DNA of 64,000 bases from Ostreococcus lucimarinus (Eukaryota), in the NCBI GenBank assembly GCA_000092065.1, contig CP000595.1; one strand, written 5' to 3'. Positions 41,181-60,835 of this stretch are shown piece by piece (positions within the stretch are counted from its first letter, which is position 1; each line of letters opens with the position of its first letter). Below the pieces are notes generated by a model. It did no database searches. It was given only the letters and a program-made list of their open reading frames with translations, and was not told the origin of the DNA. Position numbers and translations under genes: made by a program.

Positions 41181-41375
41181 GACGTCGACGCCGAGGACGC
41201 TCGAGCTCGCTCGCGGCGTCGCGCGTCGTCGTGTGCGCGTCGTCGCGCGTCGGTGTCCACAACCCTGGCGCGCGCGCCGAGGCGAAACGCGGGCGCCGGA
41301 ACGCGAATGAAAGAATGAGAAATGAATTCGATGAGGAGCGCGCTAGGAAACTATGCATCTTAATCTATCTAAAAT

Positions 41376-43196
41376 CTATCGCCGCGCTCGCTCGACGTGG
41401 GAGCGAGTGTGTGGGGTGTGGTACATGCGCGCCCAAGCGGCGAGGGCCTCGCGTCGGAACGGCGGTCGGTCCACCGCCGTGTCGCCGCCGAGCAAGAACG
41501 TGGCCAAACAACGCGATCCTTCGTCATCGTGACGGCCGCCCCACACTGCATCAATGCCGGTGAGTGCGAAAAAGGCTTCTCCTGGAGGCGGGGCGCCGTT
41601 TGGGGGCCAGTCTTCTCCCGACCAATACGAAGAATCGCGACCGGCGTCTGGAAAAAATTCAAAGCCGCAATGTGCCCCACAGCGCGGGCACAAGATCGGT
41701 AGCCATGCGTATCCTTCGAACCAAGAAAACTCAGGATGTGGCTCATCGGTATCCAGGACGACATCGGTGGTTCGATCGAGGAGCTCGTACGGACTCGTCG
41801 ACCAAAGCTCGCGCAAGCTTTCATTTTCGACAGTGCTCAAATCGACGGCGTTGCGCGCAAAGACCGCGTATCTATCGTACCAACCTCCGGGATTGAAAAA
41901 GATTTTACTCCTGACCGCAGTCGGAACAGTGTCTCGCAACTCAACAGAATCGGTGCGGAATCCGTCGATGTTTGAAAATTGCCGCATCATTCGAGTCGTC
42001 GTCAATACGAAGCCGCATCGATGCGTCACCGGAACGTGATTTGGCGGCATGACGGCTTCGAGCTGCAACCTGCTTAAAATCAAAGACAGACGAGAGTACG
42101 CGTCATCAATCGAGAGGACGAGCCAGCGAAACTGAGTGTCCAAAGCGATCGAAGGTATGGCATGAAGACACCAAAATGAAAATTCCGAGGGATGTCTGGC
42201 GCCGACGGGAAGCGACTCCTCGACGACTTGACGCAATGCCTCTTCCTTCCACGCGACTGCGTCCGTGAACTCGCGTTTGCTTTCGCTCAGGTAATCTAAA
42301 ATTTTTCCCATCAATTTTCTGCTATCGTGCACTCGATTATCGCGCTTGTGCACCCCCAGAGTATAAACGTTGATGCCGCTCGGCGCGAAGACGTCGTCGA
42401 GCGCGACGGGTGGGAACAACGACATGTCGTGCATGCTGTTGAAAGCGTTCTCTCGCGCCTTTGTCGTGTCGAAATCATCGGGAAACTCGCACCAAACGAT
42501 GTTTAACGCGCGGAACTCCACGAAGCAGGGCGTCCGATGAATCCATTGACACAGCGTCCCGACGCATCCAAACGTCGCCCCTCTCGCCGGCTCGTGCCCC
42601 TCTTCGGTCACACCGGTCGCATTCGACGCATCGAGCGCGAACACCACCAATCCCGTCGAGCGTCGCCGGACGGCACCGTCATCCCCATCATCGAGCGAGC
42701 CGTCTCGAAACGCGTCCTCGGGCGTCGTCGTCTCGCGCGTCCCCTCCAACCCCCAACCTTGCTCGACGCCATCGCGCGCGTACGCCACCAACTCTCGCGT
42801 TCGTCTCGCCGCGCTTCGCCGTCGCCACAACCACGTCGCGCTCTCCGTCGGCGCCTCGATCCTTTCTCCCGGCACTAATCCCGCGAGCGCCGACGTCGCC
42901 TCGACGAACGCGCACGGCGGCGCCGCGTCCATCTTCGACCCACCGCCTCGGCGTCCGCGGTCGTACCTCCACGCGCGCGCGCGCGCGCTTTCGACCGCTC
43001 TCCCGTACGTCTCGAACGCCCGCTTCGCGTCGATCCATCGTCGCGCGGCGTCGCCGTTCGTCTCGAACGCGTCCACCGCGTCGTCGTTCGCGGCGACGCC
43101 TCGACCGAGCGCGGCGACGTCGGCGCGATCGCGCGCGCCGTCGCCGCGTCCCGTGCGCACGGTGACGCGCGGGTACGCGTCGTCGAAGAGGTCCAT
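41376..43196 (-). CDS. CULT-domain (cereblon/Lon-N-like) protein
   Basis: C-terminal CULT signature SWFEGYAWLPILCPRCGAHCGFEFF resembles the cereblon thalidomide-binding-domain core (WFPGYAW..CxxC..GWKF). The N-terminal 250 aa are low-complexity and may be over-extended. Confidence 0.5.
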   Translation of the reverse strand: MDLFDDAYPRVTVRTGRGDGARDRADVAALGRGVAANDDAVDAFETNGDAARRWIDAKRAFETYGRAVESARARAWRYDRGRRGGGSKMDAAPPCAFVEATSALAGLVPGERIEAPTESATWLWRRRSAARRTRELVAYARDGVEQGWGLEGTRETTTPEDAFRDGSLDDGDDGAVRRRSTGLVVFALDASNATGVTEEGHEPARGATFGCVGTLCQWIHRTPCFVEFRALNIVWCEFPDDFDTTKARENAFNSMHDMSLFPPVALDDVFAPSGINVYTLGVHKRDNRVHDSRKLMGKILDYLSESKREFTDAVAWKEEALRQVVEESLPVGARHPSEFSFWCLHAIPSIALDTQFRWLVLSIDDAYSRLSLILSRLQLEAVMPPNHVPVTHRCGFVLTTTRMMRQFSNIDGFRTDSVELRDTVPTAVRSKIFFNPGGWYDRYAVFARNAVDLSTVENESLRELWSTSPYELLDRTTDVVLDTDEPHPEFSWFEGYAWLPILCPRCGAHCGFEFFPDAGRDSSYWSGEDWPPNGAPPPGEAFFALTGIDAVWGGRHDDEGSRCLATFLLGGDTAVDRPPFRREALAAWARMYHTPHTRSHVERARR

Positions 43197-43309
43197 GCGC
43201 GGCGCCGCGCGACGACGACGACGACGACGGCGACGCGCGGCGACGTGCCGGTAACACTATTCGTTTTCATCACTCCGCGACGCACGACGACGGGTGTTGC
43301 GCGCGCGCG

Positions 43310-44683
43310 ATGGGCGCGCGCGCGCGATGGGCGCGCGCGATGGCGGCGGTGACGATGGTGACGCTCGCGACGTCGATCGCGGCGGCCGAACGCGTCGAAC
43401 GGGAGGACGCGGTGCGAATGTATTACGTCAACGCGCGCGGTGCGACGACGAAGCGATTGGAGATGGAGCGCGCGGTGGTGGCGCTGGACGCGCGCGCGCG
43501 AAGGATCGAGCGCGTGGACGCGAAGAGACGATCGACGCTGCTGATGACGTACGAAACGGCGACGTGTGGACGCGGAAGATTCGCGCCGAGCGCGCACGCG
43601 GAGCGACGAGAACGATTCGGCGAGGAGTACTTGAACGCGCTGGGGACGTCGCTGTCGCACCTGGAGGCGGTGTACGCGGCGTACGACGACGGGGCGAGCG
43701 TTGCGTTGATCATGGAGGACGATGCGCGATGGGACTTGCTGCCGACGTGGTCGAGCGATTTGGAGAAATTCGTGGAGCGGTTGCCGGAAGACTGGACCGT
43801 GACGCAGTTGTCGGCGCTCGGCGATTACGCCGAGACGACGAAATTGTTTTACGATTGGCAGCGCGAGCGAAAGAATGCGCCGGGACAGAGTTTGACGACA
43901 TTACCCAAAGGTTCGCGGCGTTTGAGCGGTACGCAGGCGTATCTGATCAGTCGTAAGGGGATGAGTAGATTAGTGAAGGCGTATCGATCGCCTGCTGGAA
44001 AAACGGATGTGTGTTCAATGACGTGCGTGGAGCTCGAGGAGTGCGTCTTGGCCGACGGTGTGCACTTGGATGAGAAGTATAGAGTCGCCACGCCGCCACT
44101 ATTTGTCGAACGCTCCCCAAGCAGCGACTTTCTCGATTCGTCGCGAAATATGATTCTCAGCTGGGCCGTCTCGCTGTCGCTGACTCAAGGCAAGGCGGCA
44201 AATTTGCGCATGGACGGAGATATGATTCGCGATGTTTTGGCGGAAGGCTTGAAAGTTCCCGAACACTTGAAGCCCAACACGTTCATGGAGCATTTCAATT
44301 ACCATTGCAAGCTCAATCACGGCGGTGGTTCAAAGTGTTCGATCAAAAAGGCGTACTTGGTCAACCAAAAGCCGCCACGGATGGAAGAGCCAGCTCTGGC
44401 CGAAGAAGCGCCCGTAGACGCCGAAGAAAATTTCCGAGGTCACAATGCATCCGCATTAGGTCGCGTGGTGATGTCTCGTCGAGATCTCGCTCCGAAAGAA
44501 ACGAGTATCTGGTCCGAGTATTCCAAATCGACGCCCTTCATTTCGATGTTCGTCTTCGGCGCGTTGACGACGTTTGTGCTCGCGGCGAGCTTCGTGTTCG
44601 CCAAAACACGCCCCGAGTCGTCCAGGGACGAGTTACAGACCATTCTCCCTATAGATCCGCAAACTGAGGAGTATTATTCCTAA
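43310..44683 (+). CDS. Glycosyltransferase family 25-like membrane protein
   Basis: N-terminal signal anchor, GT25-like MYYVNARGATTKRLEMER...ERVDA and SLSHLEAV...IMEDDA blocks, and a C-terminal TM helix. Confidence 0.5.
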   Translation: MGARARWARAMAAVTMVTLATSIAAAERVEREDAVRMYYVNARGATTKRLEMERAVVALDARARRIERVDAKRRSTLLMTYETATCGRGRFAPSAHAERRERFGEEYLNALGTSLSHLEAVYAAYDDGASVALIMEDDARWDLLPTWSSDLEKFVERLPEDWTVTQLSALGDYAETTKLFYDWQRERKNAPGQSLTTLPKGSRRLSGTQAYLISRKGMSRLVKAYRSPAGKTDVCSMTCVELEECVLADGVHLDEKYRVATPPLFVERSPSSDFLDSSRNMILSWAVSLSLTQGKAANLRMDGDMIRDVLAEGLKVPEHLKPNTFMEHFNYHCKLNHGGGSKCSIKKAYLVNQKPPRMEEPALAEEAPVDAEENFRGHNASALGRVVMSRRDLAPKETSIWSEYSKSTPFISMFVFGALTTFVLAASFVFAKTRPESSRDELQTILPIDPQTEEYYS

Positions 44684-44723
44684 TAATAAATCTTTGTTGT
44701 ATTAAAGACACCTAGCTATAGCT

Positions 44724-45269
44724 CTATTCGTCCGACTCTGGCGGTTGCATTCGTTTCGCGTTTATAATCTTGTCCTTCAGCTCGGTGTAGTCCCCGGTGA
44801 AATCGAAAATCAACCCGAGATTGTCCACAATCTGATGCCACACCTCGCACTCACCACACTGCACCCACATCGTCCCCCGTTCGAGGACCTCAGGGTTGAT
44901 CATCCGCATCGTTCGCCCCTCGCACTTGTTACACGTAAACGTCATCTGCACGCGCCGTCGCGTTCGCGGCAGCTGCACGCTCGCTCGCCCCTCTTCTTCG
45001 CCCTCGTCATCGCTTGACGATGTACCACCGTCACCCAAGACGTTGACGCGCGCCACCGATCGCGCGCGCGCGAGCGGGACGTCGTCGCGACGTCGCGCGA
45101 AGAGTCGCGTCGAGAGCGACGGCGCGCGCGCGAGGACGACCGAGGCGGCCCGAGAGCGACGCGCGACGCGCGAGGACGAGGGCGTGCATGCGGATGTTGT
45201 GCTGCGCTCGCGCGCACGCGCGAACGGCGACACGCGCCCCGGTCGGGCGAGGGTGAGGGCGAAGGACAT
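44724..45269 (-). CDS. DNL-type zinc-finger protein (Tim15/Zim17/HEP-like Hsp70 escort), organelle-targeted
   Basis: FTCNKCEGRTMRMINPEVLERGTMWVQCGECEVWHQIVDNLG matches the zf-DNL C4 ribbon after a presequence. Confidence 0.8.
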   Translation of the reverse strand: MSFALTLARPGRVSPFARARERSTTSACTPSSSRVARRSRAASVVLARAPSLSTRLFARRRDDVPLARARSVARVNVLGDGGTSSSDDEGEEEGRASVQLPRTRRRVQMTFTCNKCEGRTMRMINPEVLERGTMWVQCGECEVWHQIVDNLGLIFDFTGDYTELKDKIINAKRMQPPESDE

Positions 45270-46961: not shown

Positions 46962-49844
46962 TTATACGGGCGTACCGCCCCGATCTCGATCTCGATCTCG
47001 ATCTCGATCTCGATCTCGATCCGCGGACTCGCGCGTGAAGCCGTCTCGACCGTTCTCGTTTGGGCAATACTTTGCCACGCCGTCGTCCGAGATGGGCACG
47101 ACAGATTGTTCGCCGGCGTCGTAACTGATCGACGGCGACCACACGAGCTGGATGGTTTCGCCGACGTTCTCGAAGGAGTGAATCCAACCGCACGGCATGA
47201 ATAAAATGTCGCCCGCCTCGACGACGGCGCCGAAGCCGCGCGAACGCGCGATTTTGGGTTGTTTGTCCAAGTCGACGTTGAAGGCGTTCCCCAGATAGAC
47301 GGGATTGTACAACTCTTCACCGCCGACGCGCGCGGAGAGCGGGTAGAGGTTTTCCTCATCGGCGCGATCCCAGACGACGGCGCGTTTCGAGCCTTGAACC
47401 ACTAAAACCATCACGTGAGCCGGTTTGGCGTGATGATGCGCGTGATACGCTCGAACGCCATCGCCACTGGCGAAGAGCATAAACTTTTTGAACTCCGTAG
47501 GTCGCTCGCGAAAGAGTATCTTGGAGATATACGACCAGTCTCCGCGCAATTTCGTTTCGACAGCTGCTTTGACGCGTTCGGCGAGTGCCGGACATTGTTC
47601 AATAATGTGCCACGAGTGTACGCTCGGTGGCCATAAATTATCCGCTGGGTGTAAAAAGTCCACGCCGCGTTTTCTGGCTATTTTGGATTCCCCCATCAAC
47701 TCACTATCGAAAAAATCTCTCAGTGTTTTAATCTTTCCTTTGCCTTCGAGAAAATCCAACGTTTCATTCAGCGTCAAACCTCGTGTCGTTTCGAGACGTT
47801 CGGAAAGATCTCGCAAAAGTTTTTGATGCGTCGTTTTCGTCATAGACTGGAACAATGGCACTATTTTCGACCCCAAGTCGGCGAATGCATCGCCGCATAA
47901 ATCTAAAATGAGCTCTCGCGTCACGACGCTTCGTAGCACAGTTGCAAGGTTAGCGTTTTCGATCACCACTGGTTGCCCTTCCTTGACGTATTTCCGCTCG
48001 AACGCGTCAATTGATAGTGTAGATGCGTCAACGCGCTCGATGTTGTTCCACTGAAAACTCGGATCGCTCGACGACAGCAGCAGCGGTATATCATCATGTT
48101 GCGGCGCCTCGACCGTCGGCGCGCGTTTGTTTCGTTGATGATCCTCAACTCTTTCGCCACGACCGAGGTTGGCTTGATCATCTTGAATTCGAACTAAAGA
48201 CTCTAGGAAAGACGTAACACTTTGGGCATCGTTCGGTCCGATGAAACTCTGTGCGATCGCATTCAACTCCTTATGATTTCGCACATACGGCCCAAAGTGT
48301 GACGTTTTCATCTCGCGTCTGGCTTTTAGTGACTCTTCCACGGGCCACGGACAATTTAATGGATCGCAACACGGCGCATTAATGTCATACTGACTTTCTG
48401 CTTGAAGCAAAGTAGTCTTAAGCGCACCCTCAAAGCCGTAACGATTCAATAAAGTCGCGCGATCTTTCAGAAAGGCGACATCTTCTTCGGCGATGCTGTA
48501 CTTTTCCATCAACTCCTCTATTGTTGCGTCAGTGACTTCCGCCAAAAACGCGCTAAACGTGGAAGGAAACGTGCGGTGAATGGCACCCCCCTCCACCCAA
48601 CATCTGTAATCTAAGATAGCTCCGATAGTCGGTGACCAGTTTCCGTTTTCAAGCTCCACGATGCACGCCGGTTTAGTTTCGTTGGCAGACTTTGCGTGGC
48701 ACCTTTCCATCCACGGCAAAGTTTTTTCTTTCTCATAGATCACATAACCTGCAACATAGTGCCAGTGATGGCGCGTCCCGGGAATGCTCACTGTGCTGGT
48801 TTCGTCCTCACGTTTCAACATGTCCTCGTTGTCTATCAGCATCAACGACCCTTTGGCTTCGTCGATGAAGATGTTGAATATATTTCTGTCGTGGTTACCA
48901 AGGAGGAAGTCCATCAGAGTCATCCCTATGACGTCCTCTCGCTTAAGTCGCGATACAACGAGAAAAAGTTCTTTCGTCATCATGTTCTGGCCTGGTCTGG
49001 CACCATTGATATCAGTTGGCGCGATTCCCTTTGCCCAGTCTGTGACGAGAACGTGAGTGTTTTGCTTTCCACCAAGAGAACGTGTGTCGCGTGGCGTGAA
49101 AAACTTCAAAGTCTTTGCCTCCGTAGGCGACACAAGTCGCCCGAACCCCATTGTTTCGATCAATCGATGGATGGCTGATATCCTTTCCGGGGATCGATCA
49201 CGCTGACTGTGGAAACCGCCACACGTTTCGTCAACCGGCGTCGCGTTTGCGTGTTGACGAAATTGTCCACGAATACCGCACCAAGCCTTGACGCTCACCT
49301 TTTTCCCTTCGCTCGTAACTCCTCGCAACACCATTGCCTCAGATTTGCCGACATACCTCCCTGGATTTCCCGCGTCGATGCGCTCAACTTTGACGTCGCA
49401 GTCGCAGCGCTCGCACCACCCACGCGAGTCGACGACGTCGTCTTCGCCCAGCTCGGAATGAGGCACGCATGTGGAGCAAGACGAACACGTCTCAAAGCTC
49501 GCGCGTGTACGCTTGTGATTTGTGTCTGCCCCGCGTTCATCGTCACTATCTTTCCGCACGTCGGCGTCGGCGTAATCAGCGTCAGCGACACCATCGGCGA
49601 GTTTCAGCGCTCTAACAGCAATCGTCTCGCGACGCGGCGACGTCCTCGTGAGTGCGACGGTGAGCACGCACACGAACGCGATAGAATAACACGGTGGTTT
49701 CCACCGCGCGGGCCTTCGACGCCTCTTCGTGGCGTGATGCCACATCGGAGGCGCGGAGTGACGTCGGGACGGCGACAAGCGAGAAGGCGTCGTAGAACGC
49801 ATGGGAACTAAAGCGACGCGTGCGTAACGAATGCGCTGCTTCAA
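46962..49844 (-). CDS. JmjC (cupin) domain protein with an N-terminal kinase-like domain and C-terminal (DR)6 tail
   Basis: C-terminal JmjC fold (HAHHHA..., ILFMPCGWIHSFENVG). The N-half contains a catalytic-loop-like LLGNHDRNIFNIF...LIDNE segment of uncertain family. The last codons are translated from a (GATCTC)n microsatellite. Confidence 0.65.
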   Translation of the reverse strand: MKQRIRYARVALVPMRSTTPSRLSPSRRHSAPPMWHHATKRRRRPARWKPPCYSIAFVCVLTVALTRTSPRRETIAVRALKLADGVADADYADADVRKDSDDERGADTNHKRTRASFETCSSCSTCVPHSELGEDDVVDSRGWCERCDCDVKVERIDAGNPGRYVGKSEAMVLRGVTSEGKKVSVKAWCGIRGQFRQHANATPVDETCGGFHSQRDRSPERISAIHRLIETMGFGRLVSPTEAKTLKFFTPRDTRSLGGKQNTHVLVTDWAKGIAPTDINGARPGQNMMTKELFLVVSRLKREDVIGMTLMDFLLGNHDRNIFNIFIDEAKGSLMLIDNEDMLKREDETSTVSIPGTRHHWHYVAGYVIYEKEKTLPWMERCHAKSANETKPACIVELENGNWSPTIGAILDYRCWVEGGAIHRTFPSTFSAFLAEVTDATIEELMEKYSIAEEDVAFLKDRATLLNRYGFEGALKTTLLQAESQYDINAPCCDPLNCPWPVEESLKARREMKTSHFGPYVRNHKELNAIAQSFIGPNDAQSVTSFLESLVRIQDDQANLGRGERVEDHQRNKRAPTVEAPQHDDIPLLLSSSDPSFQWNNIERVDASTLSIDAFERKYVKEGQPVVIENANLATVLRSVVTRELILDLCGDAFADLGSKIVPLFQSMTKTTHQKLLRDLSERLETTRGLTLNETLDFLEGKGKIKTLRDFFDSELMGESKIARKRGVDFLHPADNLWPPSVHSWHIIEQCPALAERVKAAVETKLRGDWSYISKILFRERPTEFKKFMLFASGDGVRAYHAHHHAKPAHVMVLVVQGSKRAVVWDRADEENLYPLSARVGGEELYNPVYLGNAFNVDLDKQPKIARSRGFGAVVEAGDILFMPCGWIHSFENVGETIQLVWSPSISYDAGEQSVVPISDDGVAKYCPNENGRDGFTRESADRDRDRDRDRDRDRGGTPV
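46982..47020. repeat. (GATCTC)6.5 hexanucleotide microsatellite, coding for the (DR)6 C-terminal tail of the JmjC protein
   Basis: Read directly from the sequence. It lies within the final 20 codons of ORF 46962..49844. Confidence 0.9.
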
Positions 49845-49879: not shown

Positions 49880-52800
49880 CTATTTTGGGGATTCCCGCGA
49901 GTTCGTGGAGTGCGCGGTGAGATGGCGCTCGTCCAAGGCGATTAAACGTTCGCCGCGTCGGTGTGTTCGAGCTTTCCAGCGCTCACGTAAATCTTGCAAC
50001 TGTGAGCTCAAAGCGCCGTGTTGCTGGCGAATAGTAATCGTAGAGTCAGCCTTGATCGTTTCAAGTAAATCGTCGTCGGCGAAAGGAAGACGTTGACCAG
50101 TCATGCTTCGAAGTTGGATGCGTTCGCTTTCCTTTGCCATTTTCTCTTGATGAATGATCTCTTCGTCTCTCTTGGCGTCGAATTCGTCGACAATCGCCTC
50201 TTCAAATTCCAAGTCGCGAATAGCGCGCTTGATGAGGCCTTCTTCGCCCTCTTCGCGGAACTGGCGAACCAACGTTCGGGCAAAATCATACCATGCCCAT
50301 GCGTGCAGGATGAACAACAAGGCCGTGATGAGATCGACAAAAGTCGAGCCTTGTCCACCTTGTTCGCCTGATTGTTTGAAAATCAGTCCGCCGGTGAATG
50401 TTGCCATAGTAGCAAGTAAGCCATGTGTCTCGATCTTTGCGTACTTTTCGCCGGCATACGGTTTTGCGACGATGTGGAATACAAAGAAAAGTTGCAACAT
50501 ACAATTCACCGTGTATCCACCAATGACTGCACTTCGTCTAGATACGATCACTATGAAGATCAGGATGAATTTTCTCGCGAATATGACCCATTCCCACCAC
50601 CACGCGGACTTGACATTGATTCCCTTGAAGAGCAAACCGAGACGATATTGCACCATTGCTGAATCGTGCTCGCCGACAATGTCTTCTCCGCGAGCGAGCT
50701 GCAGCAAACCGTATGGAATACCGACGATATACAGTATAGCCCAAACGATGACCATAAACAAGTAAAGTGAGTAGGCGGTGCCCCGGCATTGGACCGAATA
50801 GTCGGATACAAAGTGTCGATCGCTGTCGCCAGACGTACCAGTGCACTGCGTGAACTCAGCCAAATATTGAACAAGGGTGGGATAGAGAAGCCACAGAGTC
50901 GCGACGAGCCATGATATTACTATGTCGTAAGCTCTGATGTTTCGCACTTCTTCAAGACCGACATCGTGCTTGTTCACTTTATTCGTGTTACCACTATCGA
51001 TGGCGTTTGTTTCTTCATCTTCAGCAGAATCATTTGCCTTTGTCTTCTTCGTGGCTTCCACTCTAGCTTGGGCCGTTGCCTCTCTCAACTCTTCGACGTA
51101 CTTGATAACCGTGAAGATGATGAACAAGAATATCATCAAGCCTAGTGGGAGCAACTCGTGAAACAGTAGATTTCCGTAAAACTTCCAGCCAATGGCGCAC
51201 TTTGCTGACGCCGACCGTATGTCAGGTAACGAAAGCTTCTCGGCGATAAGTAAGAATGCTTTCATCGAATCCGGCCATGCGAGGTCTAAATTTTTCGCCA
51301 ACGCTGTCATTTGTAAATAGGTGACAAACGATTTTATCATGCCGACGACTTGTGAACTTCGGCGTTGATTGACAACCCGAATGAGCCACACCAGCAACAA
51401 TATCCAGAGAAAGTTGACGACGACGATCGGAAAGTTGAGCACTCGATATGCTCCTGCCGAACAATCGTAACATTTTGGTGGATATGCTTCTCGAATGGCG
51501 TGGTACGCATAACCATTCGCACAAGCTGCGCACATAGCACCAGTGTACCCTGCATCAAGACATGTGCTGTTTACGCCGCCTAGGCACGCGTCAGGGTACG
51601 GACACGCGCGAAATTTCAGCGTTTGTCGGTCAAATCTACTGAAACCAGGAAGCGCTTCGACATTTTCGAGCTCATCACCGTAACATTTTGCACCTTTCGG
51701 GCATGCCATACATTTGTAATCATCGAGTGGGAGTTGTCGATAATAGCTCTCGAATGGGACACTCGTTTGAGAGATGCAGTGGCAGGAACTCTTGCTCACG
51801 TGACCAAGGGCGCCTAAAAGTTGCACTCCTGACTGTGCTTGATATGTTTGCCTCAATCTGCCGTCAACTCGCGAAGTATCCATGGAGATTGGGCACGACG
51901 TGCATGCTCCGTCACCGTGCGCCACTTTGTAGAAGCCATTCTTGCACGGCACACACATGCCATACGGGTGAAGAGCATCGAGCCATCGAGATGACCCAGA
52001 TGTAGCTGTCTTATATAGAGTTATATTCGTTTCGACATAAATGGTATCGATATCTTCAGTATATCCCGTGCCTCCACTAATGTCGGCGGTGAAGCCAGGA
52101 ATGCACTCGCACACGCCAGAGCGAAGCACGCTGTTCGGTTTGACTGTTGAGCAATTCATGACCGTCGTTGGAGTTGAAGGTACGATACTCACATTCAACG
52201 TTGAAGCCGAAAAATTCAGCTCATAGGCATTCGCGCGCTCACCGATGATTGTGATTGAATCGAATTTCGCCAAGCCGTTCACCATCGCCGCCTCTGTCCC
52301 TGAAATGCTCGCCACAGCGGGCGATACACTGACCGTAAGCGTCGTATTGATATCGACGCACACGTTTCCTACAGAATCGATCGCCGCGATGACTGGTGCA
52401 GGCGAAAGTGCGAAGTCATTTTCGTTTATGAAGGGAGGTGCCGTGACGACGGCCAACGCTGTCGGCGCGCCAGGGACTACGGTGAACTCCAACATGTCAG
52501 TCTCCAGCACAGGATAGAGCGCACCAGGACATCGACTTGAGCCACATGATGAAGCGAATCGCAAGCGATAGGTCCCAGCTAATGCATTTTGAATATGCAG
52601 ACCGACATTATAGTGTGTGTCGGGCGCAATACCACTATACCCAGCCTCCCTGCAATATGATGGTGCGGGGTTGGTGTACACCACTCTGTACGTGTAAGCA
52701 CCAGTCGTGGGATTACTGGAGACCACAGTCCTCGGGCTAGAGTCAAGTGAATCTTTGCACCATCCCACTCCACCATTTACTGCGAGAAGAGATCCATCCC

Positions 52801-55800
52801 ATTCGGCTTGCAAGGTTGGTAGCACACTTGCCCGTGGTTGATCCTCCGCTGGCACGAAAGAAAATAGCTCAACCGTGATGTTACGCGCTTCGGTGTCCCA
52901 CATCGAGCCCACATGATAACCGCCAGGATCAGTCATTTGCACGACAAAGTCACGAAGATCCAGGGTTTGCGCTGCGATATATTGTGCAGGATCCCGACAC
53001 AAACCTCGGTCGACACGTGTGAACGAGTTACCGGTGCACGTGTCAAGCGCCGCTGGGTACCCAGCGCTGTAAGTCAGTTGTGTGGAGACCGAATCGAGAC
53101 CCGCTGTAGAAAACGTCAATGAGTACGTTCCGGTGCACGGTCGATAGAATACGATATCATCAAACACCGCTGTGCCCGCAACGATAGTCTGAGGTGTGTA
53201 TGATACATTCGTCTCAAAGTTGCAAGCGCTCACGACCACGCGCTCCGCCTTTACAGAAACTTCGTAATTTAGGTTGAGCGCATTCAAGCCTGCATCGACC
53301 ACACGAATCTGAATCATACTCAATTTTACTTTTTTTGCCGTGGAATACGCAGTCTGCAACGCGATTGCTGCACCGCTGGCAGGTGACGTGAAAGTCTGAA
53401 CAATTAATCCACCATTAATATTTTGCATGAAAAAGAAAAAATAAGTAAGCCTTACCGGTGAGATGAAAAGCGCACTTGCAGTGCCAATCGTAATCGTAAA
53501 TGTACGAGTCGCGGGCGCAACGCTGAGCCCTAACGCGGTACAATTGTCGCAGTTGAAAGAAATCACATAATCCCCGATCTGTAATTAATTGTGTGTGAGG
53601 ATGAAAGTTCTAATGAAATCTGTCATCAATGGGAGCGTACCTCTGGGGCATTGATCACTGTGTCACGAAGTAGTGTACTGTCGGTTCCCGCCGCTATGAC
53701 GCCATTTCTCCCGCTCGTCGCAAACGTATGCCTACATTTTGAATAAAATTAATTAATTCCGGTTATGAATTAATTAGAATCGAAACGTACCTTTGACCCA
53801 CGATACTGGCGATAATACTGTACTCGTGAGTGTTAAGCGACCCGAAACGATTACCTGCGTCATCTGCGATCGCAATTTCGAAAGGGCCGAGGGTTGTTGA
53901 TGCCGTCGCCGGGTATGATCCTTGTGGTGAATTTGCCACGACCAGTTTAGCTGGATCTCCTAACGCCACTGTTACCGCATAAGTCGCAACGGCCTTGCCG
54001 TTGAGATAAAATACGATATCGTGCTGCTGCGCAGTCGGCGCGAGCAGCACGAGGTTCTTAAACTCAACGACGCCGGGTGTGCCGCCCTGTGTATTTAAAT
54101 AAGTTAATTAATTGTTCTCCGTGAAATAAATAATTCATCGCGTTCGAGCATAGTTGACTCACCTGAGTTGCACACGTCGTAGTGCTACCACACGATATCG
54201 CAAAAGTTTCCCCTCCTATCAAGGGATTAATTCCCTGTGGATAAGCCGCCAATTCGGCGGTTTGGCAGACAACAAATATTTGTGCCCCGGTCGGCGAAGC
54301 CGAAATAAAATTCCCTCCGCCATCGTAAAGTCGCCCAACTAGAGGACTAGAAGCGTTCGCAATCGATGTTTCTAGCTTAGATTTGAATGTTCCACTACCT
54401 TGTGTTTCGTCGAGGATCAATTGTGCCGCATTTCCCAAAGTCACGGAAAAGTAGTACTGTGCACCCAGCAGACCCGGCGAGTGGATGTCGACGGCGTACG
54501 TACCGATGTACGGCTTGGCGATGTGTAGTCCATCAAAATAGCTTCCACCAGACTCAGTGTTGGCTTCAAAAGTCGCCACTGATGTACATGATACTCCATG
54601 CAGTGTCGACGATGTACTGGCAAGCCCAGCACATTCGCATGCGTTGCCTTCACCAGTTCTTCTGCACAAGGTGACATTTTGCGGCGATAAGTGCACACGT
54701 CTGCTAGGACATGTCTCGCAAGCTTTCGTTTCAAGATCATCGACGGGATTGAAAGCTCCGTCGAGAATAGTCACCACGACTGGGTACATTGCAACGTCCG
54801 ACGCGGCGCGATATTGATGACAAGTGCAGTTGACATTAGTTTGGCACGCTCCGTCGACTGTGGCGCAGTACGGCAGTAAGCCGAGGTGATTGGATCGCCC
54901 TGCCGTGATCTCTAAATCCACGCTTGCAGACCTCAAACTCGAATCGGACGACACGAAAGTCAAATTGTACGTTCCTTTCTGCGGCTTGACGAGATGCAAA
55001 CCTGAGAACGTCGCAGTCCCAGCGCTCGAAGTGGTTTCCACAAGAGAGCCGGTCCTCGGGTACAGTGAAGTATCTGTGTATACAGTAAGTACCGACGTTC
55101 TTGCGATTGTTGTCGCATTTGCACCGAGTATGAACGGATGAATTTCGACGTTTGTGTCATTCATCATCGCCGTCAACGTAACTCCGTTCGGCAAAGTCCC
55201 CGTCGGCGACTCATTTCCCGCCCCATCCACCGGTACGACGACGAAGTCATCCAGAGGCACAGAGTGCCCGGCTGAGTATGCTGTTGCCTCGGATAGTTGG
55301 ATGCTTTCAGTGAATGATGGTGAAAATTCTAAGACTTTGGGGCTGGTGACCTTGAATCCGCTCACGGCTCCAATCAAAACGCTCACCGTGAGAACTGTAC
55401 TTTGTAGCTTTCCCACGCGCAACTCGCCACTCACTTCAGCGCCAGTCTCAATGACATTAAGGGTGTGCGTACCGACTTTCGGTGAATTTGCAATCAAACC
55501 CGTGAAAGAAACTTGACCGTTGCCATTCGTGAACATCGCAGTCGTTCCAGAAAGTTTCAAAGTTTCGCAAGTCACTTGAATGGTACGATTTGGCGCTACT
55601 GCATCCGTGGTTGAGTGACGATCCGCGGTTCCCATTGAATTGCCGAGCATATCTTGAACGTATACCGTGAACGAACCCAATCCTACAGATTGATCAGCTG
55701 TTACCGATGATAATATCGATTGACTCGAAGCTAGTTCATATCCAGCATCTCCAGCTAGCACATTCACCACTTGGAGAACGGGTGTTAAATCGCCAGACGA

Positions 55801-58800
55801 GAATGTCAATCCGAACTCCCCGACGACAGGTCCGACTACTTTGAGATCAGAAAATCGCCATACACCGCTGTCGTCTCGTTTTACTTGCAAAGTACCATCC
55901 AAAGTGATACCAGCCGATGCATGTACGGTCACAGTACGCGGCGTAATTTCCGCCGCACCGACAAAGTTATTCCCCCCGTCGTATGCGCCAATGATAATTT
56001 CACCTACGGATTGCTTGGGTGCCTCGGCGTAAACTGTTCTCTTACTATACGTCCCATTTATACGAAGGTAAGACGGTTCGCCGATCTCCATTTGCATAAT
56101 TGAATGCGCGCGATATCGAACTCCATTCAACGTCGTCGTAAACTGAACAATGTACTTTGAAGCCTCGCCAAAGTCTCCTCGTGTGGCATCGCTATACGTG
56201 ATATCGTCCGTGGATCCTACAGCTCGTGAACCAGAAGGTGGCATAGCGACAAGTCTGAGATCTGAAAATGATACTCGACCATCATTAGTCGTCTTGTTCA
56301 GCGTTCCAGTGAGCTGGGCTCCGATACTTCTCTCTCTGTAGTCTTCGTTGCTGTTGAGTGTACCCGTCACGAGTGACGCTTGTACGGTGACGTCATCAAG
56401 AGATAGCGTCTGAAGCATACTTCCACCGATGTCAACGATGTCGACTGTCAAATGTCCGATCGATACGTTTCGGGCCGCGTCGAGCACGACGACATCTGTT
56501 GGAAATAACGTAGCACTTGATATCATAGAATTCTCCGTCGCCGCGCCGGGTGTCACCTTCAAACCACCGCTCGAACCTGGTGTTACGGATAAATAGGCGT
56601 GTGCAAGTACACCAAGGTCATCACTACATGCACCATCATCATTGGTACAATCGGTTGCGGTAAAAGTGATCACGTATTCCCCAGCGGTTGGTATCGAGGA
56701 TAGCTGTGGAGTGAATGTTGCGATGCCGTCCGAAGTCTGCACTGATGACGTTGCCTCGGTGATAGCGACCTCTGACGGCCCAGAAATACTCGCCGAAATT
56801 GTGTAACCTTTCGTACCTCCTTGACCACGGTCATAGTTGATTTCAGTTCCATCGATATCCACAAGTCCAACCTTGAACGTTCCAAGTGAGAAATCTGTCG
56901 CGGCAACTCGAGCTTGATGCGAATCCGGTCCACTCAAGAGCTTAACTCCAACTGGTGGTCCATGAAGCTTCAAAATCCCTCCACTAACGTAATCAATACC
57001 GTTCAGTGCAACTGCGACCTGCGCATCTTGCGGTTGTCCGTTCGTAAGCCATGGAAGCGGACTCCCAACTGGATTGGCGCACCTTCCATTGACTACATTG
57101 CACACAGGACACTTGATTTCTGACGAACTAACGAACACCGCACTGGTCACACTCGTCGTGTTATCGTTGAACTTACATTTTAAATCGGGCGAATTCAGAA
57201 ACGGACCTCCGAGTATGCGAAGCAGTACTGGCGCGAGATCGGCATCCTCGCCTGTGAGAAGAACCTTGGCGTCATCTGAACCAATCTTTGTACTAATTAT
57301 GACGGCTGGATCGTGATAACGTAGATATATCTGACCAGAGTTCCACAGCGAGTTGGTCCAAATGCTTGTTGGATCGCTCGAATCGGTTGGTAATCCATCG
57401 AACGATATTTGGACTTCGCTATAACCTATAGTGGAGGAGTTTGAATTTGACGCCGACGGTGCCATGCATGAGAGCTCTGTCGCCGAAACATAAGTTGCTG
57501 GCGACCAAGATGTCTTCGAAAACCCATTATTAGCGTCATAAGTGTGTCCAAACCTACATGAAATCGAATGACTCATTCCACTGGCAAGGGTAGGCGAATA
57601 AAAGCCAGATCCATGAATTTTTATCGGCGTTCCAGACGTGAGCGCGCTGATGTGAGTCGGCTCGATCCCCGAAACGATCACCGTGGAGTACTTTGTGTAC
57701 GTCGTACTCGCCGCAGAACTCACCGCGAACACGCTGCGCTCGCCCGGTACGGCGCTGATGCCACCGATGGTGTGGCTTTCTTCAAATGTCCCCACACGCT
57801 TGAAACAACCGCTTATACAAGCACTAGACGTGTCCGTACCCCCTATTTCGATCTTGACGATCCGACTCTTACCGCTTTCACGCGATCCCACGGCCCAGTA
57901 CATGAAATCTTTTTCTCCTGCCGTCGCTCCGGTTTGAACGGTAGCGCTCAGAGCATCACGCTCTCCGAGCGCTGCGTCAAGAGCAATCACGGCGAGTGGA
58001 CTATCGCCTTCAGCAAAATTCAAGTCAAACATGAAGATGCATGCCGCGCGATTTTTACACCCCGGACAGTCGCCGTCTCGACCTGAAGTGCCCACGTATC
58101 CATAGCCGTTGTGCTTTGTGATCGCAGTAAACGTCGAAAAGCGTCCTTGCTTTGAATCGAGCTGCCCTTCGCACGCCTCGAGCACCTTGACGTTTGTTGA
58201 GTCCAAATACATTTCAACCCCATCGCCGTCACGAGTCCCTGAGTTTGTATTCACCTTGAACAAAGTAGGATAAAAGGTTTTGCCATCGGAGTCATCCAAG
58301 AGGGCAGATCCAGCGAAGATGACATAGTTGACACCTGTTTGAGTATGCGCCACACTCGTCTCCAACCTCATGGCGTCCGGGGCAAGCGAACATGTGGGGC
58401 ATTTAGTGCTCAGTAAACCCGGAGCTAAGAAGTTTATTCCTTTATCGTTCAAACTGCCGTCGACGTGACCAATGACGCTTCGCGACAGACCGTCTTCGTG
58501 CGTGGCCTTGTACACTATCATGCCGTTGGCTGGGTCTGTGCCCATGGCATCCAAAATGTACTGCTCTTTTGAGAAAGTCGCACTCGCCTGACCATTTGTC
58601 AATGAACTGAGAACGCAGTTCGCCCACTGCGATGAATCTGATGAGCATGTAGTACCGACATACTTGAAAAGCGAAAATCTAAACTGATTTGCCGTGGTCT
58701 GATGCCACATGTTCACTGGCACGACGACGCCCGTCAGCGCTGTCGACAAATCGGCAGCCATTTTAGCGTACACTCCGTACCAACCGCGCGACTTCTGAGG

Positions 58801-59379
58801 ATCCACATGTCCATATGCTCTCGGATGCTTCGCTGCGCACCCGCTCGAGATCCCAATACCGCAAAAATTTGGCAAAGGTGTTATCGACAATGGCACCGCG
58901 CCCGTTGTCTCTCGTCTCGGTCCGTTCGTTTGTCCCCAACCTCTCGCCGTCACTGCGTTTGAGGTAAAAGTCTCCGGATACCTCGGATCGACTTCGATCA
59001 CTCGCGTTCCATTAGCATCTTGCGCGTAGACGTAAATTACGTTCTTTCGCGTGTCTACCATGACGTCTTCGACGTACTTTTCGTCGTACGCCGTCCCGGC
59101 GGTGTCGTACTCGTACCCCGCCGTCCCATCCAAGCGCGACTCTTTCACCACCGATGGCGTGGGAACATCGCACGCAAGTCCTGCCCATCCTGCCTCGCAC
59201 GCGCACACGCCGTCTAAGCCGCATCGCCCCTGTCCAGCGCTCGCCGAGCACCCGCGCTCGCAACGATTGAACGTCAAGCCTTGACATGAGTGCGCCAACG
59301 ACGCGATGACGACGACGAGCGCGACGGTGACGAGCGCTCTGAACCCTCGGCGCGAGCTTGTACGACCGTTACCACCCAT
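49880..59379 (-). CDS. Giant (about 3080 aa) surface-receptor-like protein: signal peptide, EGF-like module, multiple IPT/TIG and Ig-like beta-sandwich repeats, Cys-rich furin/ephrin-receptor-like modules, polytopic (7-8 TM) domain, cytoplasmic coiled-coil tail. Five exons: complement(join(49880..53395,53456..53578,53641..53731,53791..54086,54163..59379))
   Basis: ORFs 54064..59634, 53763..54050 and 49880..53566 join in frame through four short AT-rich GT..AG introns (54087..54162, 53732..53790, 53579..53640, 53396..53455) with consensus donors (CAG|GTGAGT, AAG|GTACGT, GAG|GTACGC, CCG|GTAAGG). TIG-like repeats (e.g. VIVSGIEPTHISALTSGTPIKIHGSGF...SCRFG), the N-terminal EGF module (CQGLTFNRCERGCSASAGQGRCGLDGVCACEAGWAGLACD) and the C-terminal TM cluster are read directly from translation. 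Start is taken at Met 59379 (signal peptide); the ORF opens at 59634. Confidence 0.65.
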
Positions 59380-59920
59380 CGTCGCGCGGCGAGCGGCGCT
59401 TGAAGTCGCGCGTTCCCGCACGCTCACCCCGCGTCCCGCGCGATGGCCGCGGCTTCCGACTTCACGAGACGATGCGACGCGCGCTCGAGCGCGTCGTCGG
59501 CGCGAGCGGCATGGACGACGAAGCGAATGAGCGCTGAGACGAAGTTTGTGTGTTATACACGCACCGCTCGGCGTCGACGCGGTGGAGTGACGCGGCGACG
59601 CGTTGACGCGAGACTCGACCACCAACGACTCCAAGCGACGAATGGAATCGTCGCGGCCGCCTCGGCGACGCGGTCGTTGGTTCGTTTGTGAGTTTATTTT
59701 CGTTTCAACGAGTTTTTACGCTTTGAAGAGTAATAATGGACTATTATTTTAGATATTGAAAAAGGAAAGTTGCAAACCCCAAGTCATGTCGCGAATCGCC
59801 CGTCTCGGCGCCCAAAGGCGCTTTGAGACGACGAGGTCGAAGACGCTAAACGTGCGATTTTGAGACGACCGCTCGATCGCGTGCGACGAATTTGAGTGAA
59901 ACTTTGAAATAATTTGAAAT

Positions 59921-60835
59921 TCACGCCTCAAGTGACGCTTGAGAGAGGTTTCTATACATTTCCAGAGATTTAACGGGATGGTACAGCGCGTCGCGGCGAA
60001 TCGGCGCAAGTCTGGGTACCGCGTCAAAGTCAAAGGCCGGACGCCAGCGCATGTAAGCTACGTCGGGACCCAAATCACGGAACGAGAATGTGTCGGAATT
60101 CACCGTGAGGAAAGTTGGTAGGAATGCCTCGTGATGTCCGCTGCTTCTGGTAGAAGTGGAGAGGTGCGCCACCGCGGCGGCGGCAAAGTTTCGCGAGATC
60201 CGAAACGCGGGCAACAAGGCACTTTGCTTGCACCAATTCGGAAGGCCTCGACAGTACGTGCAAGATGGCCAGTGATTCCATGCCGTCTTGTTTGAGTACC
60301 GAAATGTTGTGTTGAAAGCGATGAGATCACTCGAATCTGATTCGTATTTCTCAAAAAGCGTTTGCCACGAGCCGGTGAAAACCACGTCGGGCTCGATGAT
60401 CCAGCCGAAGTCGATCCACGCTTGATCTGGCTGCGTGAGCCATCTCAAGGCTCTTGGCTTCACTGAAGCACCGTATATTCCTGAGAACAACTCGAACGAA
60501 TGACTTCCGTAACGCAATCGTTCCACCTCCCGAGAGGCTTGCACGACTGTCGCGTCGTCGGCAGTTGACGTGTTGAACCAAGGGCGAAACTTGCCTTCAT
60601 AAACCAACACTTGGGCAGAGATTCGTGCAGAGCGAGTGTTCGAGAAAACCGTGTCGCGAGCGAGGCGGTGCAGATCGTCTAGTTTCCTGTCGTTACCAAC
60701 CGTCAGAATTACGACTGTGTGTACGCTACTTTTTGTTTCTGGAAGGGGGTAGAGAAAGGCGAAGAGAAACGAACCACACACGAGCACAAGGAGCAGCCAA
60801 CGCTTAGTCAGTTCACGAGCCCGGCGCTTGCGCAT
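59921..60835 (-). CDS. Type II membrane protein, putative Golgi glycosyltransferase-like (family unassigned)
   Basis: N-terminal basic stretch plus signal anchor (KRWLLLVLVCGSFLFAFLY) and a roughly 270-aa lumenal globular domain. Intermediate GC. The family is not recognisable with confidence. Confidence 0.45.
   Translation of the reverse strand: MRKRRARELTKRWLLLVLVCGSFLFAFLYPLPETKSSVHTVVILTVGNDRKLDDLHRLARDTVFSNTRSARISAQVLVYEGKFRPWFNTSTADDATVVQASREVERLRYGSHSFELFSGIYGASVKPRALRWLTQPDQAWIDFGWIIEPDVVFTGSWQTLFEKYESDSSDLIAFNTTFRYSNKTAWNHWPSCTYCRGLPNWCKQSALLPAFRISRNFAAAAVAHLSTSTRSSGHHEAFLPTFLTVNSDTFSFRDLGPDVAYMRWRPAFDFDAVPRLAPIRRDALYHPVKSLEMYRNLSQASLEA

What the first reader, a model, noticed from the sequence alone, without database searches (positions are those of the whole stretch)
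49880..59379. Architecture of the giant protein: EGF, repeated TIG/IPT domains, ephrin-receptor-like Cys modules, a 7-8 TM domain and a coiled-coil tail
This combination looks like an adhesion/receptor molecule. It has a very large extracellular beta-sandwich array with Cys-rich modules (CVPCKNGFYKV...ACTSCP; CMACPKGAKCYG), anchored by a polytopic membrane domain rather than a single TM, and a charged coiled-coil cytoplasmic tail. Such proteins in picoalgae are candidates for cell-surface recognition, for example virus or grazer interaction or gamete recognition. Its position in a compositional island adds to that suspicion.
Basis: inference. Interest (0 to 1): 0.6.

Follow-up and report, generated by a model that had tools for sequence, protein, structure and literature searches.

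The report
Ostreococcus giant CRMP-family surface protein
The window encodes a real 3080-residue surface protein of an Ostreococcus picoalga, the green-algal counterpart of the CRMP proteins that parasites such as Toxoplasma need to fire their invasion organelles; its membrane part resembles a fungal family of putative stretch-activated calcium channels, but its role in the alga is untested.

Summary
The gene is real, on the minus strand at 49880-59379. It has five exons and four short AT-rich introns and encodes 3080 aa. The model aligns end to end with an O. mediterraneus transcript product and an O. tauri protein.

- Confirmed: one EGF, two TIG domains, one ephrin-receptor-like module plus a DUF7630 module, and a polytopic membrane domain.
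- Corrected: only two repeats are TIG. Eleven further repeats match no Pfam family and resemble bacterial invasin/Big_1-type repeats.
- Corrected: the membrane domain models as nine helices, not 7-8.
- Missed: a 7-bladed beta-propeller at aa 81-564.
- Not supported: the "coiled-coil" tail shows no heptad signal above shuffles.

The C-terminal core is homologous to Toxoplasma CRMPA and CRMPB (profile E 1e-60 and 8e-29). The O. tauri orthologue is already named "cysteine repeat modular protein 2-like", so this is a new member of a known kind.

The wider family of about 2500 clusters overlaps Pfam PF06011, the fungal Flc/Pkd2 "TRP" family with nine TM helices. This suggests a contact- or force-to-calcium transducer, which is inference only.

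The low GC belongs to the gene itself, in an orthologue too. It is not evidence of foreign origin.

The parts
49880..59379 (-). Whole coding region of the giant gene. Five exons: 59379-54163, 54086-53791, 53731-53641, 53578-53456, 53395-49880 (stop included). Product 3080 aa.
   Evidence: Splicing model. End-to-end, junction-gapless alignment to the O. mediterraneus transcript product and the O. tauri protein. Orthologous locus with the same layout.
53396..54162 (-). Region holding the four short AT-rich introns: 54162-54087, 53790-53732, 53640-53579, 53455-53396. GC is 0.24-0.37. Three of them carry AATTAATTA shortly before the 3' splice site.
   Evidence: Introns 3 and 4 sit at the same positions in orthologue L002, where stop-containing insertions fall exactly there.
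59278..59379 (-). Signal peptide, aa 1-34.
   Evidence: Hydropathy peak at aa 10-37 after an Arg-rich N-terminus. A similar hydrophobic N-terminus is present in the O. tauri and O. mediterraneus orthologues.
59140..59277 (-). EGF-like domain, aa 35-80, six Cys at 40-70.
   Evidence: EGF_Teneurin 25.0 bits (cut-off 24.3) and EGF_2 E 9.7e-4.
57688..59139 (-). 7-bladed beta-propeller, aa 81-564. No Pfam family matches it.
56962..57687 (-). Two IPT/TIG domains, aa 565-689 and 690-806.
   Evidence: PF01833 34.5 bits, E 2.1e-8, two stretches. TIG is also recorded for orthologues P0007-P0009 and for P0015 and P0022.
52157..56961 (-). About 11 Ig-like repeats of 105-197 aa, aa 807-2322. Shared pattern: ..F.V.V.D..GN... 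G.A.F..L....P..G.Y.L.F. The span includes the four introns.
   Evidence: Motif scan and repeat alignment. No Pfam hit at E 10. Repeated BLASTP matches (E to 2e-10) to the Big_1/Invasin_D3/CarboxypepD_reg repeat region of P0011. The same repeat type occurs in family member P0028. The fold was not modelled.
51455..52156 (-). Cys-rich juxtamembrane stalk, aa 2323-2556. It holds an Ephrin_rec_like module (aa 2389-2417; nt 51872-51958) and a DUF7630 module (aa 2504-2540; nt 51503-51613).
   Evidence: 25.6 bits against 23.1; 24.8 bits against 27. DUF7630 is found in 16 of 29 family members and in TgCRMPA at 64.6 bits. Nine invariant or near-invariant Cys.
50273..51454 (-). Nine-helix membrane domain, aa 2557-2950. 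Helices: 2558-2585, 2592-2611, 2648-2676, 2731-2756, 2782-2812, 2843-2860, 2865-2886, 2892-2920, 2926-2950. Charged loop at 2677-2730. Cys-bridged hairpin between C2760 and C2779.
   Evidence: AlphaFold2 model m83518d77584e, pLDDT 85.4, pTM 0.84. Hydropathy. Homology to the TgCRMPA/B 9-TM cores. PF06011 hits of relatives map to aa 2765-2960.
49883..50272 (-). Charged cytoplasmic tail, aa 2951-3080, with conserved motifs RAxRDLExE, LPFADDDLL and LSSxLxxLRxxW.
   Evidence: The motifs are shared with the O. tauri, O. mediterraneus and Micromonas-type homologues. 60% identity to L002. No significant heptad periodicity. No Pfam hit.

Best explanation
The gene encodes the Ostreococcus orthologue of a CRMP-family (cysteine repeat modular protein) giant surface protein.

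Shown:
- The order of parts is signal peptide, one EGF, a 7-bladed beta-propeller, two TIG domains, about eleven invasin/Big-like Ig repeats, a Cys-rich stalk (Ephrin_rec_like + DUF7630), a nine-helix membrane domain and a conserved acidic tail of 130 aa.
- The stalk plus membrane domain is homologous to the 'conserved core' of Toxoplasma CRMPA and CRMPB.
- It belongs to a pan-eukaryotic family of about 2500 clusters at 50% identity. In this family the same core carries very different ectodomains.
- Several family members score above Pfam's cut-off for PF06011. That is the fungal Flc/Pkd2 'TRP' family, which also has nine TM helices and a C-terminal cytoplasmic tail.

Inferred mechanism:
- The long, rigid, glycosylated ectodomain projects from the naked cell surface and binds a partner or bears load.
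- Displacement is passed through the disulfide-rich stalk to the nine-helix domain.
- That domain acts as an Flc/Pkd2-like cation (Ca2+) conduit, or as a conformational transducer.
- The conserved tail recruits cytoplasmic partners and couples contact to a cellular response such as regulated secretion. This is what CRMPs do for rhoptries in Toxoplasma and mucocysts in Tetrahymena.

The ligand, the localisation and any ion flux are unknown.
For: Gene model.

CRMP homology:
- The 29-sequence family profile gives 211 bits, E 1.2e-60 against TgCRMPA and 106 bits, E 7.7e-29 against TgCRMPB.
- A profile of the window sequence and its six closest relatives (rows 1-7 of A1) gives E 1.4e-30 and 3.9e-11.
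- hhalign probability is 99.9%.
- The CRMP sequences came from S2 Table of PMC9815656.
- The O. tauri orthologue OUS44311.1 is named 'cysteine repeat modular protein 2-like protein, putative'.

Nine helices. CRMPs are described as having 9 TM helices, N-out and C-in, and as being required for rhoptry or mucocyst exocytosis.

Family size: 2518 representatives at E <= 1e-3. Named members come from Micromonas, Anaeramoeba, a ciliate and a cercozoan.

PF06011 link:
- 12 of 29 members hit at E <= 0.01.
- Four score above the cut-off of 28.5: P0028 46.4 bits E 3.4e-12, P0112 35.4, P0142 30.3 and P0154 29.0.
- All align colinearly to profile positions about 228-417, which correspond to window aa 2765-2960.
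- The window hits P0028 at E 8e-32.
- Independently, Foldseek of the model against BFVD ranks first a Megaviridae protein named 'Transient receptor potential ion channel' (E 8.7e-4, probability 1.00, TM 0.43/0.52).
- S. pombe Pkd2 has a signal peptide, an Ig-like ectodomain, 9 TM helices and a 135-aa tail.
Against: - The window sequence itself gives no PF06011 hit even at E 10. TgCRMPA and TgCRMPB give none at E 1. The channel-family link is therefore transitive.
- I could not compare directly with a fungal Flc or Pkd2 sequence or model. afdb50 was unavailable.
- Whether PF06011 proteins are themselves channels is debated, and no structure of one exists.
- Ostreococcus has no known extrusome-like organelle, so the exocytosis analogy may not transfer.
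- No partner paralogue comparable to CRMPB was identified.
Confidence: 0.6

Rival explanations
1. It is a passive adhesin or surface-coat protein. The ectodomain does the work (cell-cell, cell-particle or matrix adhesion, or shielding against viruses), and the nine-helix domain is only a strong anchor with no transducing role.
For: More than 80% of the protein is ectodomain built of adhesion-type modules: EGF, propeller, TIG and Ig-like repeats. No catalytic or signalling domain is found in the tail.
Against: The membrane domain and juxtamembrane stalk are the most conserved parts (65-68% to L002, against 43-63% for the Ig repeats). They are the only part conserved across about 2500 clusters with unrelated ectodomains. 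Polar residues in the helices are invariant or nearly so: Q2604 in 29 of 29 sequences, K2851 in 28, and R2850 and E2898 in 26 each. That degree of conservation is not expected of a mere anchor. The tail motifs are also conserved.
Confidence: 0.2
2. It is an adhesion-GPCR-like receptor that signals through heterotrimeric G proteins, as PANTHER suggests for TgCRMPA and PfCRMP1.
For: A large adhesive ectodomain on a polytopic domain resembles adhesion GPCRs. The literature calls CRMPa 'GPCR-like' and reports a GAIN-like match in Tetrahymena CRMPs.
Confidence: 0.07
3. It is a plexin/Met-like or fibrocystin (PKHD1)-like receptor, because it combines a beta-propeller with TIG domains.
For: A propeller followed by TIG domains recalls Sema-PSI-IPT in plexins and Met. 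Long TIG arrays recall fibrocystin.
Confidence: 0.03
4. The 3080-aa product is an artefact that fuses two or more separate genes: the two long ORFs of 1856 and 1228 aa.
For: Prokaryote-style gene callers split the locus into three ORFs in every metagenome contig.
Against: A complete O. mediterraneus transcript ORF of 3109 aa and the 3123-aa O. tauri protein align end to end with the spliced model, with no gaps at the junctions. The segments between the ORFs have canonical GT..AG ends and restore one frame.
Confidence: 0.02

Closest known systems
Apicomplexan and ciliate CRMPs (Toxoplasma CRMPA/CRMPB, Plasmodium CRMP1-4, Tetrahymena CRMP1/2)
   Same: The core is homologous: a juxtamembrane Cys-rich unit (DUF7630) plus nine TM helices. 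Both have ephrin-receptor-like and EGF-like Cys modules, giant size, an N-terminal signal peptide and a cytoplasmic C-terminus. The O. tauri orthologue is already named CRMP2-like.
   Different: The ectodomain differs. Here it is one EGF, a propeller, two TIG domains and eleven Ig-like repeats, with only one ephrin-like module. Alveolate CRMPs carry MAR, Kringle and C-lectin modules and many Cys repeats. The host is a green alga with no known rhoptry- or mucocyst-type organelle. No A/B partner, MIC15-like protein or TSP1-like protein was identified. The conserved tail motifs (LPFADDDLL) were seen in the O. tauri and O. mediterraneus orthologues and in the closest, Micromonas-type relatives. 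Whether alveolate CRMPs carry them was not examined.
Fungal Flc/Pkd2 family (Pfam PF06011 'TRP': S. pombe Pkd2, Trp663, Trp1322; S. cerevisiae Flc1-3)
   Same: The layout matches: signal peptide, extracellular beta-sandwich domain(s), nine TM helices and a cytoplasmic tail of about 130 aa. Family members of the window protein score above the PF06011 cut-off over the last five helices. The top viral fold match is annotated with this family's name.
   Different: The window protein itself does not reach the PF06011 model. The fungal TRP_N/ML-like lipid-binding domain is absent, and the ectodomain here is about 2500 aa instead of about 150. DUF7630 is not a feature of the fungal proteins, as far as I know from memory.
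Animal polycystins and fibrocystin (PKD1/PKD2, PKHD1)
   Same: The concept is shared: a huge ectodomain of Ig-like or TIG repeats coupled to a polytopic domain thought to gate cations.
   Different: No sequence or fold match to 6-TM TRP/PKD channels, REJ, GPS or PLAT was found. This is analogy only.
Bacterial invasin/intimin-type Ig-like (Big_1, Invasin_D3) repeat adhesins
   Same: The eleven central repeats give repeated pairwise matches to such a repeat array in P0011. They share the D..GN and G.A.F motifs.
   Different: None of the repeats reaches any Pfam Big or Invasin model. The setting is eukaryotic, with intron-containing coding sequence.

Membership tests
CRMP family (cysteine repeat modular proteins; 'conserved core' of Singer et al. 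2023) | Sequence homology of the core (EGF-like Cys units + TM domain) to TgCRMPA/TgCRMPB | tested here: met
CRMP family (cysteine repeat modular proteins; 'conserved core' of Singer et al. 2023) | Nine transmembrane helices at the C-terminus | tested here: met
   The AlphaFold2 model (pLDDT 85.4) has nine long helices consistent with N-out, C-in. Hydropathy alone gives 7. This is a prediction, not an experiment.
CRMP family (cysteine repeat modular proteins; 'conserved core' of Singer et al. 2023) | Cysteine repeat modules of the GCC2_GCC3/Ephrin_rec_like type, plus EGF-like modules | tested here: met
   One Ephrin_rec_like at 25.6 bits (cut-off 23.1), DUF7630 at 24.8 bits (below 27) and EGF_Teneurin at 25.0 bits (cut-off 24.3). 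There is only one ephrin-like copy, so the 'repeat' aspect is weak.
CRMP family (cysteine repeat modular proteins; 'conserved core' of Singer et al. 2023) | Surface exposure of the N-terminus, cytosolic C-terminus, heterodimer with a second CRMP, requirement for regulated exocytosis | not testable with these tools
   Known for Toxoplasma and Tetrahymena from experiments. Here the only support is a signal peptide and the distribution of Cys and glycosylation sites.
Pfam PF06011 'TRP' (fungal Flc/Pkd2 nine-TM family) | Match to the PF06011 model above its gathering score (28.5 bits) | tested here: not met
   The window TM region gives no hit at E 10. Relatives do: P0028 46.4, P0112 35.4, P0142 30.3 and P0154 29.0 bits. 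The relation is therefore at superfamily level and transitive.
Pfam PF06011 'TRP' (fungal Flc/Pkd2 nine-TM family) | Nine TM helices followed by a cytoplasmic tail of about 130 aa | tested here: met
   compared with the description of Pkd2.
Pfam PF06011 'TRP' (fungal Flc/Pkd2 nine-TM family) | N-terminal TRP_N/ML-like lipid-binding domain | tested here: not met
   No such Pfam hit anywhere in the protein.
Pfam PF06011 'TRP' (fungal Flc/Pkd2 nine-TM family) | Cation (Ca2+) permeability | not testable with these tools
   Requires electrophysiology or reconstitution.
IPT/TIG domain (PF01833) | Match above the gathering score | tested here: met
   34.5 bits, E 2.1e-8, two stretches in aa 565-806. 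Not met for the other 11 repeats.
Canonical TRP/polycystin channels and adhesion GPCRs | 6-TM TRP/PKD channel fold, or 7-TM fold with GAIN/GPS | tested here: not met
Coiled coil (tail) | Heptad periodicity of hydrophobic residues over 28 residues or more | tested here: inconclusive
   In my own crude heptad score, 31% of shuffles reach the observed maximum. No COILS or Marcoil run was possible, and the tail was not modelled.

The most novel reading that the evidence does not exclude
The CRMP core, including this Ostreococcus protein and the Toxoplasma and Plasmodium CRMPs that trigger rhoptry discharge, may belong to the same nine-TM superfamily as the fungal Flc/Pkd2 putative stretch-activated Ca2+ channels. 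CRMPs would then be contact- or force-gated cation channels carrying interchangeable giant ectodomains, and giant viruses would encode stripped-down versions. In Ostreococcus the protein would be the cell's main surface mechano- or contact sensor, for example for virus, grazer or mate contact. I found no paper in the held library that links CRMPs to PF06011 or Pkd2. One paper only speculates on a Piezo-like role.
Probability: 0.3. Interest if true: 0.75.

Novelty: new member of a known kind. Interest (0 to 1): 0.42.

Why it matters
CRMPs are essential invasion factors of Toxoplasma and Plasmodium, and their molecular action is unknown. They are usually described as an alveolate feature.

A full-length, well-conserved CRMP-family gene in Ostreococcus shows that the core module is pan-eukaryotic. 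Ostreococcus is the smallest free-living eukaryote and a genetically tractable green alga. The core module is also independent of rhoptry-type organelles.

The overlap of the wider family with the fungal Flc/Pkd2 nine-TM family gives a concrete, testable mechanism, namely cation flux gated by load on the ectodomain. This applies both to the algal protein and to the parasite proteins.

For picoalgal biology, this is one of very few giant surface proteins on a naked cell. That makes it a reasonable candidate for contact-dependent processes, but nothing here shows which one.

Tried and rejected
- Pfam on the whole 3080-aa protein gave only two sub-threshold hits and missed EGF and TIG. Scanning segments was needed.
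- The search for homologous proteins with the family profile A1 returned a single fragment. With P0015 it returned only P0015 itself. Both searches were wasted, because the word index is swamped by TM-type words.
- The window C-terminus found no viral relative.
- afdb50 was not installed. There was therefore no structural comparison with AlphaFold models of Pkd2, PfCRMP2 or Dictyostelium Q86I19.
- PDB sequence-profile searches with the Ig-repeat profile and the core profile found nothing meaningful.
- Plexin/Sema, fibrocystin, adhesion-GPCR and canonical TRP readings were considered and rejected (see the rival explanations).
- The horizontal-transfer or outlier-chromosome reading of the low-GC island was rejected, because the orthologue shows the same GC dip.
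- My first domain table used wrong borders for the N-terminal half. One search replaces it.
- The species was not identified beyond Ostreococcus. It is not O. tauri or O. mediterraneus at these identities.
Full report
**Gene model**

The feature lies on the minus strand. Two long ORFs (54064-59634 and 49880-53566) are separated by a stretch holding short AT-rich segments with GT..AG ends. Removing four introns (54162-54087, 53790-53732, 53640-53579, 53455-53396) joins everything into one frame of 3080 codons.

The model is backed by independent data:
- A locus from a related species (L002) has the same three-ORF layout. It carries stop-containing insertions exactly where introns 3 and 4 lie.
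- A complete 3109-aa transcript ORF of Ostreococcus mediterraneus aligns end to end with the model at 58% identity, with no gap at any exon junction.
- The 3123-aa O. tauri protein does the same at 61% identity.

The window is therefore from another Ostreococcus species. A neighbouring gene's exact product occurs on dozens of Tara and ENA marine metagenome contigs.

**Anatomy of the ectodomain**

A Pfam scan of the whole protein was nearly blank. Scanning segments gave the following, with borders.
- aa 1-34: signal peptide.
- aa 35-80: EGF domain, EGF_Teneurin 25.0 bits against a cut-off of 24.3.
- aa 565-806: two TIG domains, 34.5 bits, E 2.1e-8.
- aa 807-2322: about eleven repeats of 105-197 aa with a shared pattern (F.V.V.D..GN ... 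G.A.F..L....P..G.Y.L.F). They reach no Pfam model even at E 10. They do give many pairwise matches (E to 2e-10) to the repeat array of P0011, which Pfam labels Big_1, Invasin_D3 and CarboxypepD_reg. I call them invasin/Big-like Ig repeats. Their fold was not modelled.
- aa 2323-2556: a Cys-rich stalk with one Ephrin_rec_like module (25.6 bits against 23.1) and a DUF7630 module (24.8 bits, below 27).

**Membrane domain and tail**

An AlphaFold2 model of aa 2460-2965, built on 29 diverse homologues, is confident (mean pLDDT 85.4, pTM 0.84). It shows nine long helices. Several observations fit an N-out, C-in nine-TM topology:
- a signal peptide and a Cys-rich N-terminal part;
- a charged loop at aa 2677-2730;
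- a Cys-bridged beta-hairpin between C2760 and C2779;
- the odd number of helices needed to place the tail in the cytoplasm.

The same topology has been determined or predicted for CRMPs.

The 130-aa tail is charged and 60% conserved to L002. It carries motifs (RAxRDLExE, LPFADDDLL, LSSxLxxLRxxW) shared with the O. tauri, O. mediterraneus and Micromonas-type homologues. A heptad test is no better than shuffles, with 31% of shuffles reaching the observed score. 'Coiled coil' is therefore unsupported.

**What family it is**

An exhaustive HMMER search with aa 2320-3080 found 2518 cluster representatives at E <= 1e-3. The shared part is aa 2467-2959, which covers the last Cys-rich unit and the membrane domain. 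It always sits at the C-terminus of large proteins, up to 6588 aa, whose ectodomains are unrelated. These include EGF arrays, ephrin-like arrays, Kelch or RCC1 propellers, laminin-G, fn3, CUB and TIG. Named members come from Micromonas pusilla, Anaeramoeba, a ciliate (named 'DUF7630 domain-containing') and a cercozoan.

The architecture recalled CRMPs. I took the TgCRMPA and TgCRMPB core sequences from the S2 Table of Singer et al. 2023 and tested them directly.
- The window sequence alone hits TgCRMPA at 38.8 bits, E 1.9e-8 for a nominal database of one million sequences. The alignment runs from DUF7630 to the eighth helix.
- The family profile gives E 1.2e-60 against CRMPA and 7.7e-29 against CRMPB.
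- A profile of the window sequence and its six closest relatives gives 1.4e-30 and 3.9e-11.
- hhalign gives 99.9% probability.
- TgCRMPA carries DUF7630 at 64.6 bits.
- The O. tauri orthologue is already named 'cysteine repeat modular protein 2-like protein, putative' in NCBI (OUS44311.1).

Membership in the CRMP family is thus established and, at the level of database annotation, already known.

**Link to a channel-like family**

Scanning the 29 aligned cores against Pfam showed that 12 hit PF06011 'TRP'. Four are above its cut-off of 28.5: P0028 at 46.4 bits, P0112 at 35.4, P0142 at 30.3 and P0154 at 29.0. All align colinearly to profile positions about 228-417, which map to window aa 2765-2960, the last five helices. 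P0028 also carries the same Ig-like repeat type and DUF7630, and the window hits it at E 8e-32.

PF06011 is the fungal Flc/Pkd2 family. S. pombe Pkd2 is described as signal peptide, Ig-like ectodomain, nine TM helices and a 135-aa tail.

There is independent structural support. Foldseek of the membrane-domain model against viral predicted structures ranks first a Megaviridae protein named 'Transient receptor potential ion channel', followed by two more Megaviridae proteins (probability 1.00).

Three points count against the link:
- The window sequence and the TgCRMP cores do not themselves reach PF06011.
- A PDB sequence-profile search is empty.

The link is therefore transitive and at superfamily level. 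No solved structure tells us what the fold does. I found no paper in the held library that connects CRMPs with PF06011 or Pkd2. One paper speculates that the CRMP complex might sense force 'like Piezo'.

**How it most likely works**

Shown: the parts, their order, the homologies and the conservation.

Inferred:
- The protein sits in the plasma membrane with about 2550 residues outside.
- The propeller, TIG and Ig array binds something or bears load.
- The disulfide-rich stalk couples this to the nine-helix domain.
- That domain transduces the signal, most plausibly by passing cations as proposed for Pkd2 and Flc, or else by conformational signalling to partners bound at the conserved tail.

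I put CRMP-family identity above 0.9 and the transducer or channel mechanism at about 0.35. The stated overall confidence is 0.6.

Conservation argues against a mere anchor. The stalk and helices are the best-conserved parts (65-68%), and the only parts shared across the whole family. They hold invariant or near-invariant polar residues (Q2604, R2850, K2851, E2898).

**The island and the virus idea**

The GC dip (0.48-0.52 against 0.60-0.65) coincides with the gene. It recurs at the orthologue in L002 (0.47-0.50 against 0.53-0.64). It is an inherited property of the gene, not evidence of recent transfer.

No close relative exists in IMG/VR. Distant family members are encoded on contigs binned as giant-virus MAGs, namely L005-L007, which are 56-60% identical to P0034. 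Distant members also occur in Megaviridae environmental sequences. The L007 neighbourhood has GC 0.26 and carries FGE-sulfatase, Skp1, PhyH and F-box-LRR genes. That does not prove viral origin.

**Verdict**

This is a real, correctly delimited gene. The protein is a new member of a known kind, the CRMP family, whose closest orthologue already carries that name. The most interesting residue of the analysis is the family-level overlap with the Flc/Pkd2 nine-TM family. If confirmed, it would give CRMPs a testable mechanism.

Noticed in passing
window 53396-54162 (minus strand): The four introns are 59-76 nt long with GC 0.24-0.37. Three of them carry AATTAATTA 8-25 nt upstream of the 3' splice site. 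TTAATTA occurs nowhere else in the 64-kb window. It may be an intron-specific branch-site or recognition motif of this intron class.
   Followed up: partly
cluster of P0002 (orthologue from another Ostreococcus-type species): NCBI protein MAK95839.1, 'MAG: hypothetical protein CL994_05805 [Euryarchaeota archaeon]' (1499 aa), clusters at 90% identity or more with exon 1 of this eukaryotic gene. An Ostreococcus-type contig was probably mis-binned into an archaeal MAG.
   Followed up: no
L005-L007 (IMG/VR GVMAG contigs); BFVD hits A0A5J6VHI1, A0A5J6VI06, A0A5J6VLW6: Contigs binned as giant-virus MAGs (GC about 0.26) encode 1600-aa family members with an ephrin-like array plus the nine-TM core. 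Megaviridae environmental proteins share the membrane-domain fold, and one is named 'TRP ion channel'. The neighbours on L007 (FGE-sulfatase, Skp1, PhyH, F-box LRR) do not settle whether the contig is viral or from an AT-rich eukaryote.
   Followed up: partly
window 46962-49844 (minus strand): The gene immediately downstream is a 960-aa ORF with a Cupin_8 (JmjC-like) domain (E 2e-11) and a weak PI3/PI4-kinase match. Its 3' part shares the lower GC. Downstream synteny differs from L002, where small ORFs, PsbQ and zf-DNL follow.
   Followed up: no
window 59921-60835 (minus strand): A 304-aa ORF just upstream matches no Pfam family. It sits where L002-L004 have a 327-aa ORF directly upstream of the giant gene. 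It may be a conserved neighbour. The sequences were not compared.
   Followed up: no
window 39516-45269: The flanking genes show a photosynthetic green-lineage host: ResB/CCS1 (E 1e-73) at 39516-41180 and a zf-DNL protein at 44724-45269. The same gene order (zf-DNL, 457-aa ORF, 606-aa ORF, ResB, Rubisco-LSMT substrate-binding) occurs on Tara metagenome contigs.
   Followed up: partly
P0015, P0020, P0022 (relatives found): A second group of related proteins has the same overall architecture but a different tail motif set (FADNSxRD, HLQLSxNLExxRxxW). It may be a paralogous lineage, which recalls the CRMPA/CRMPB pair. Neither P0015 nor P0022 carries a source name, so no organism could be assigned to this group, and a further search with P0015 found only P0015 itself.
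   Followed up: partly
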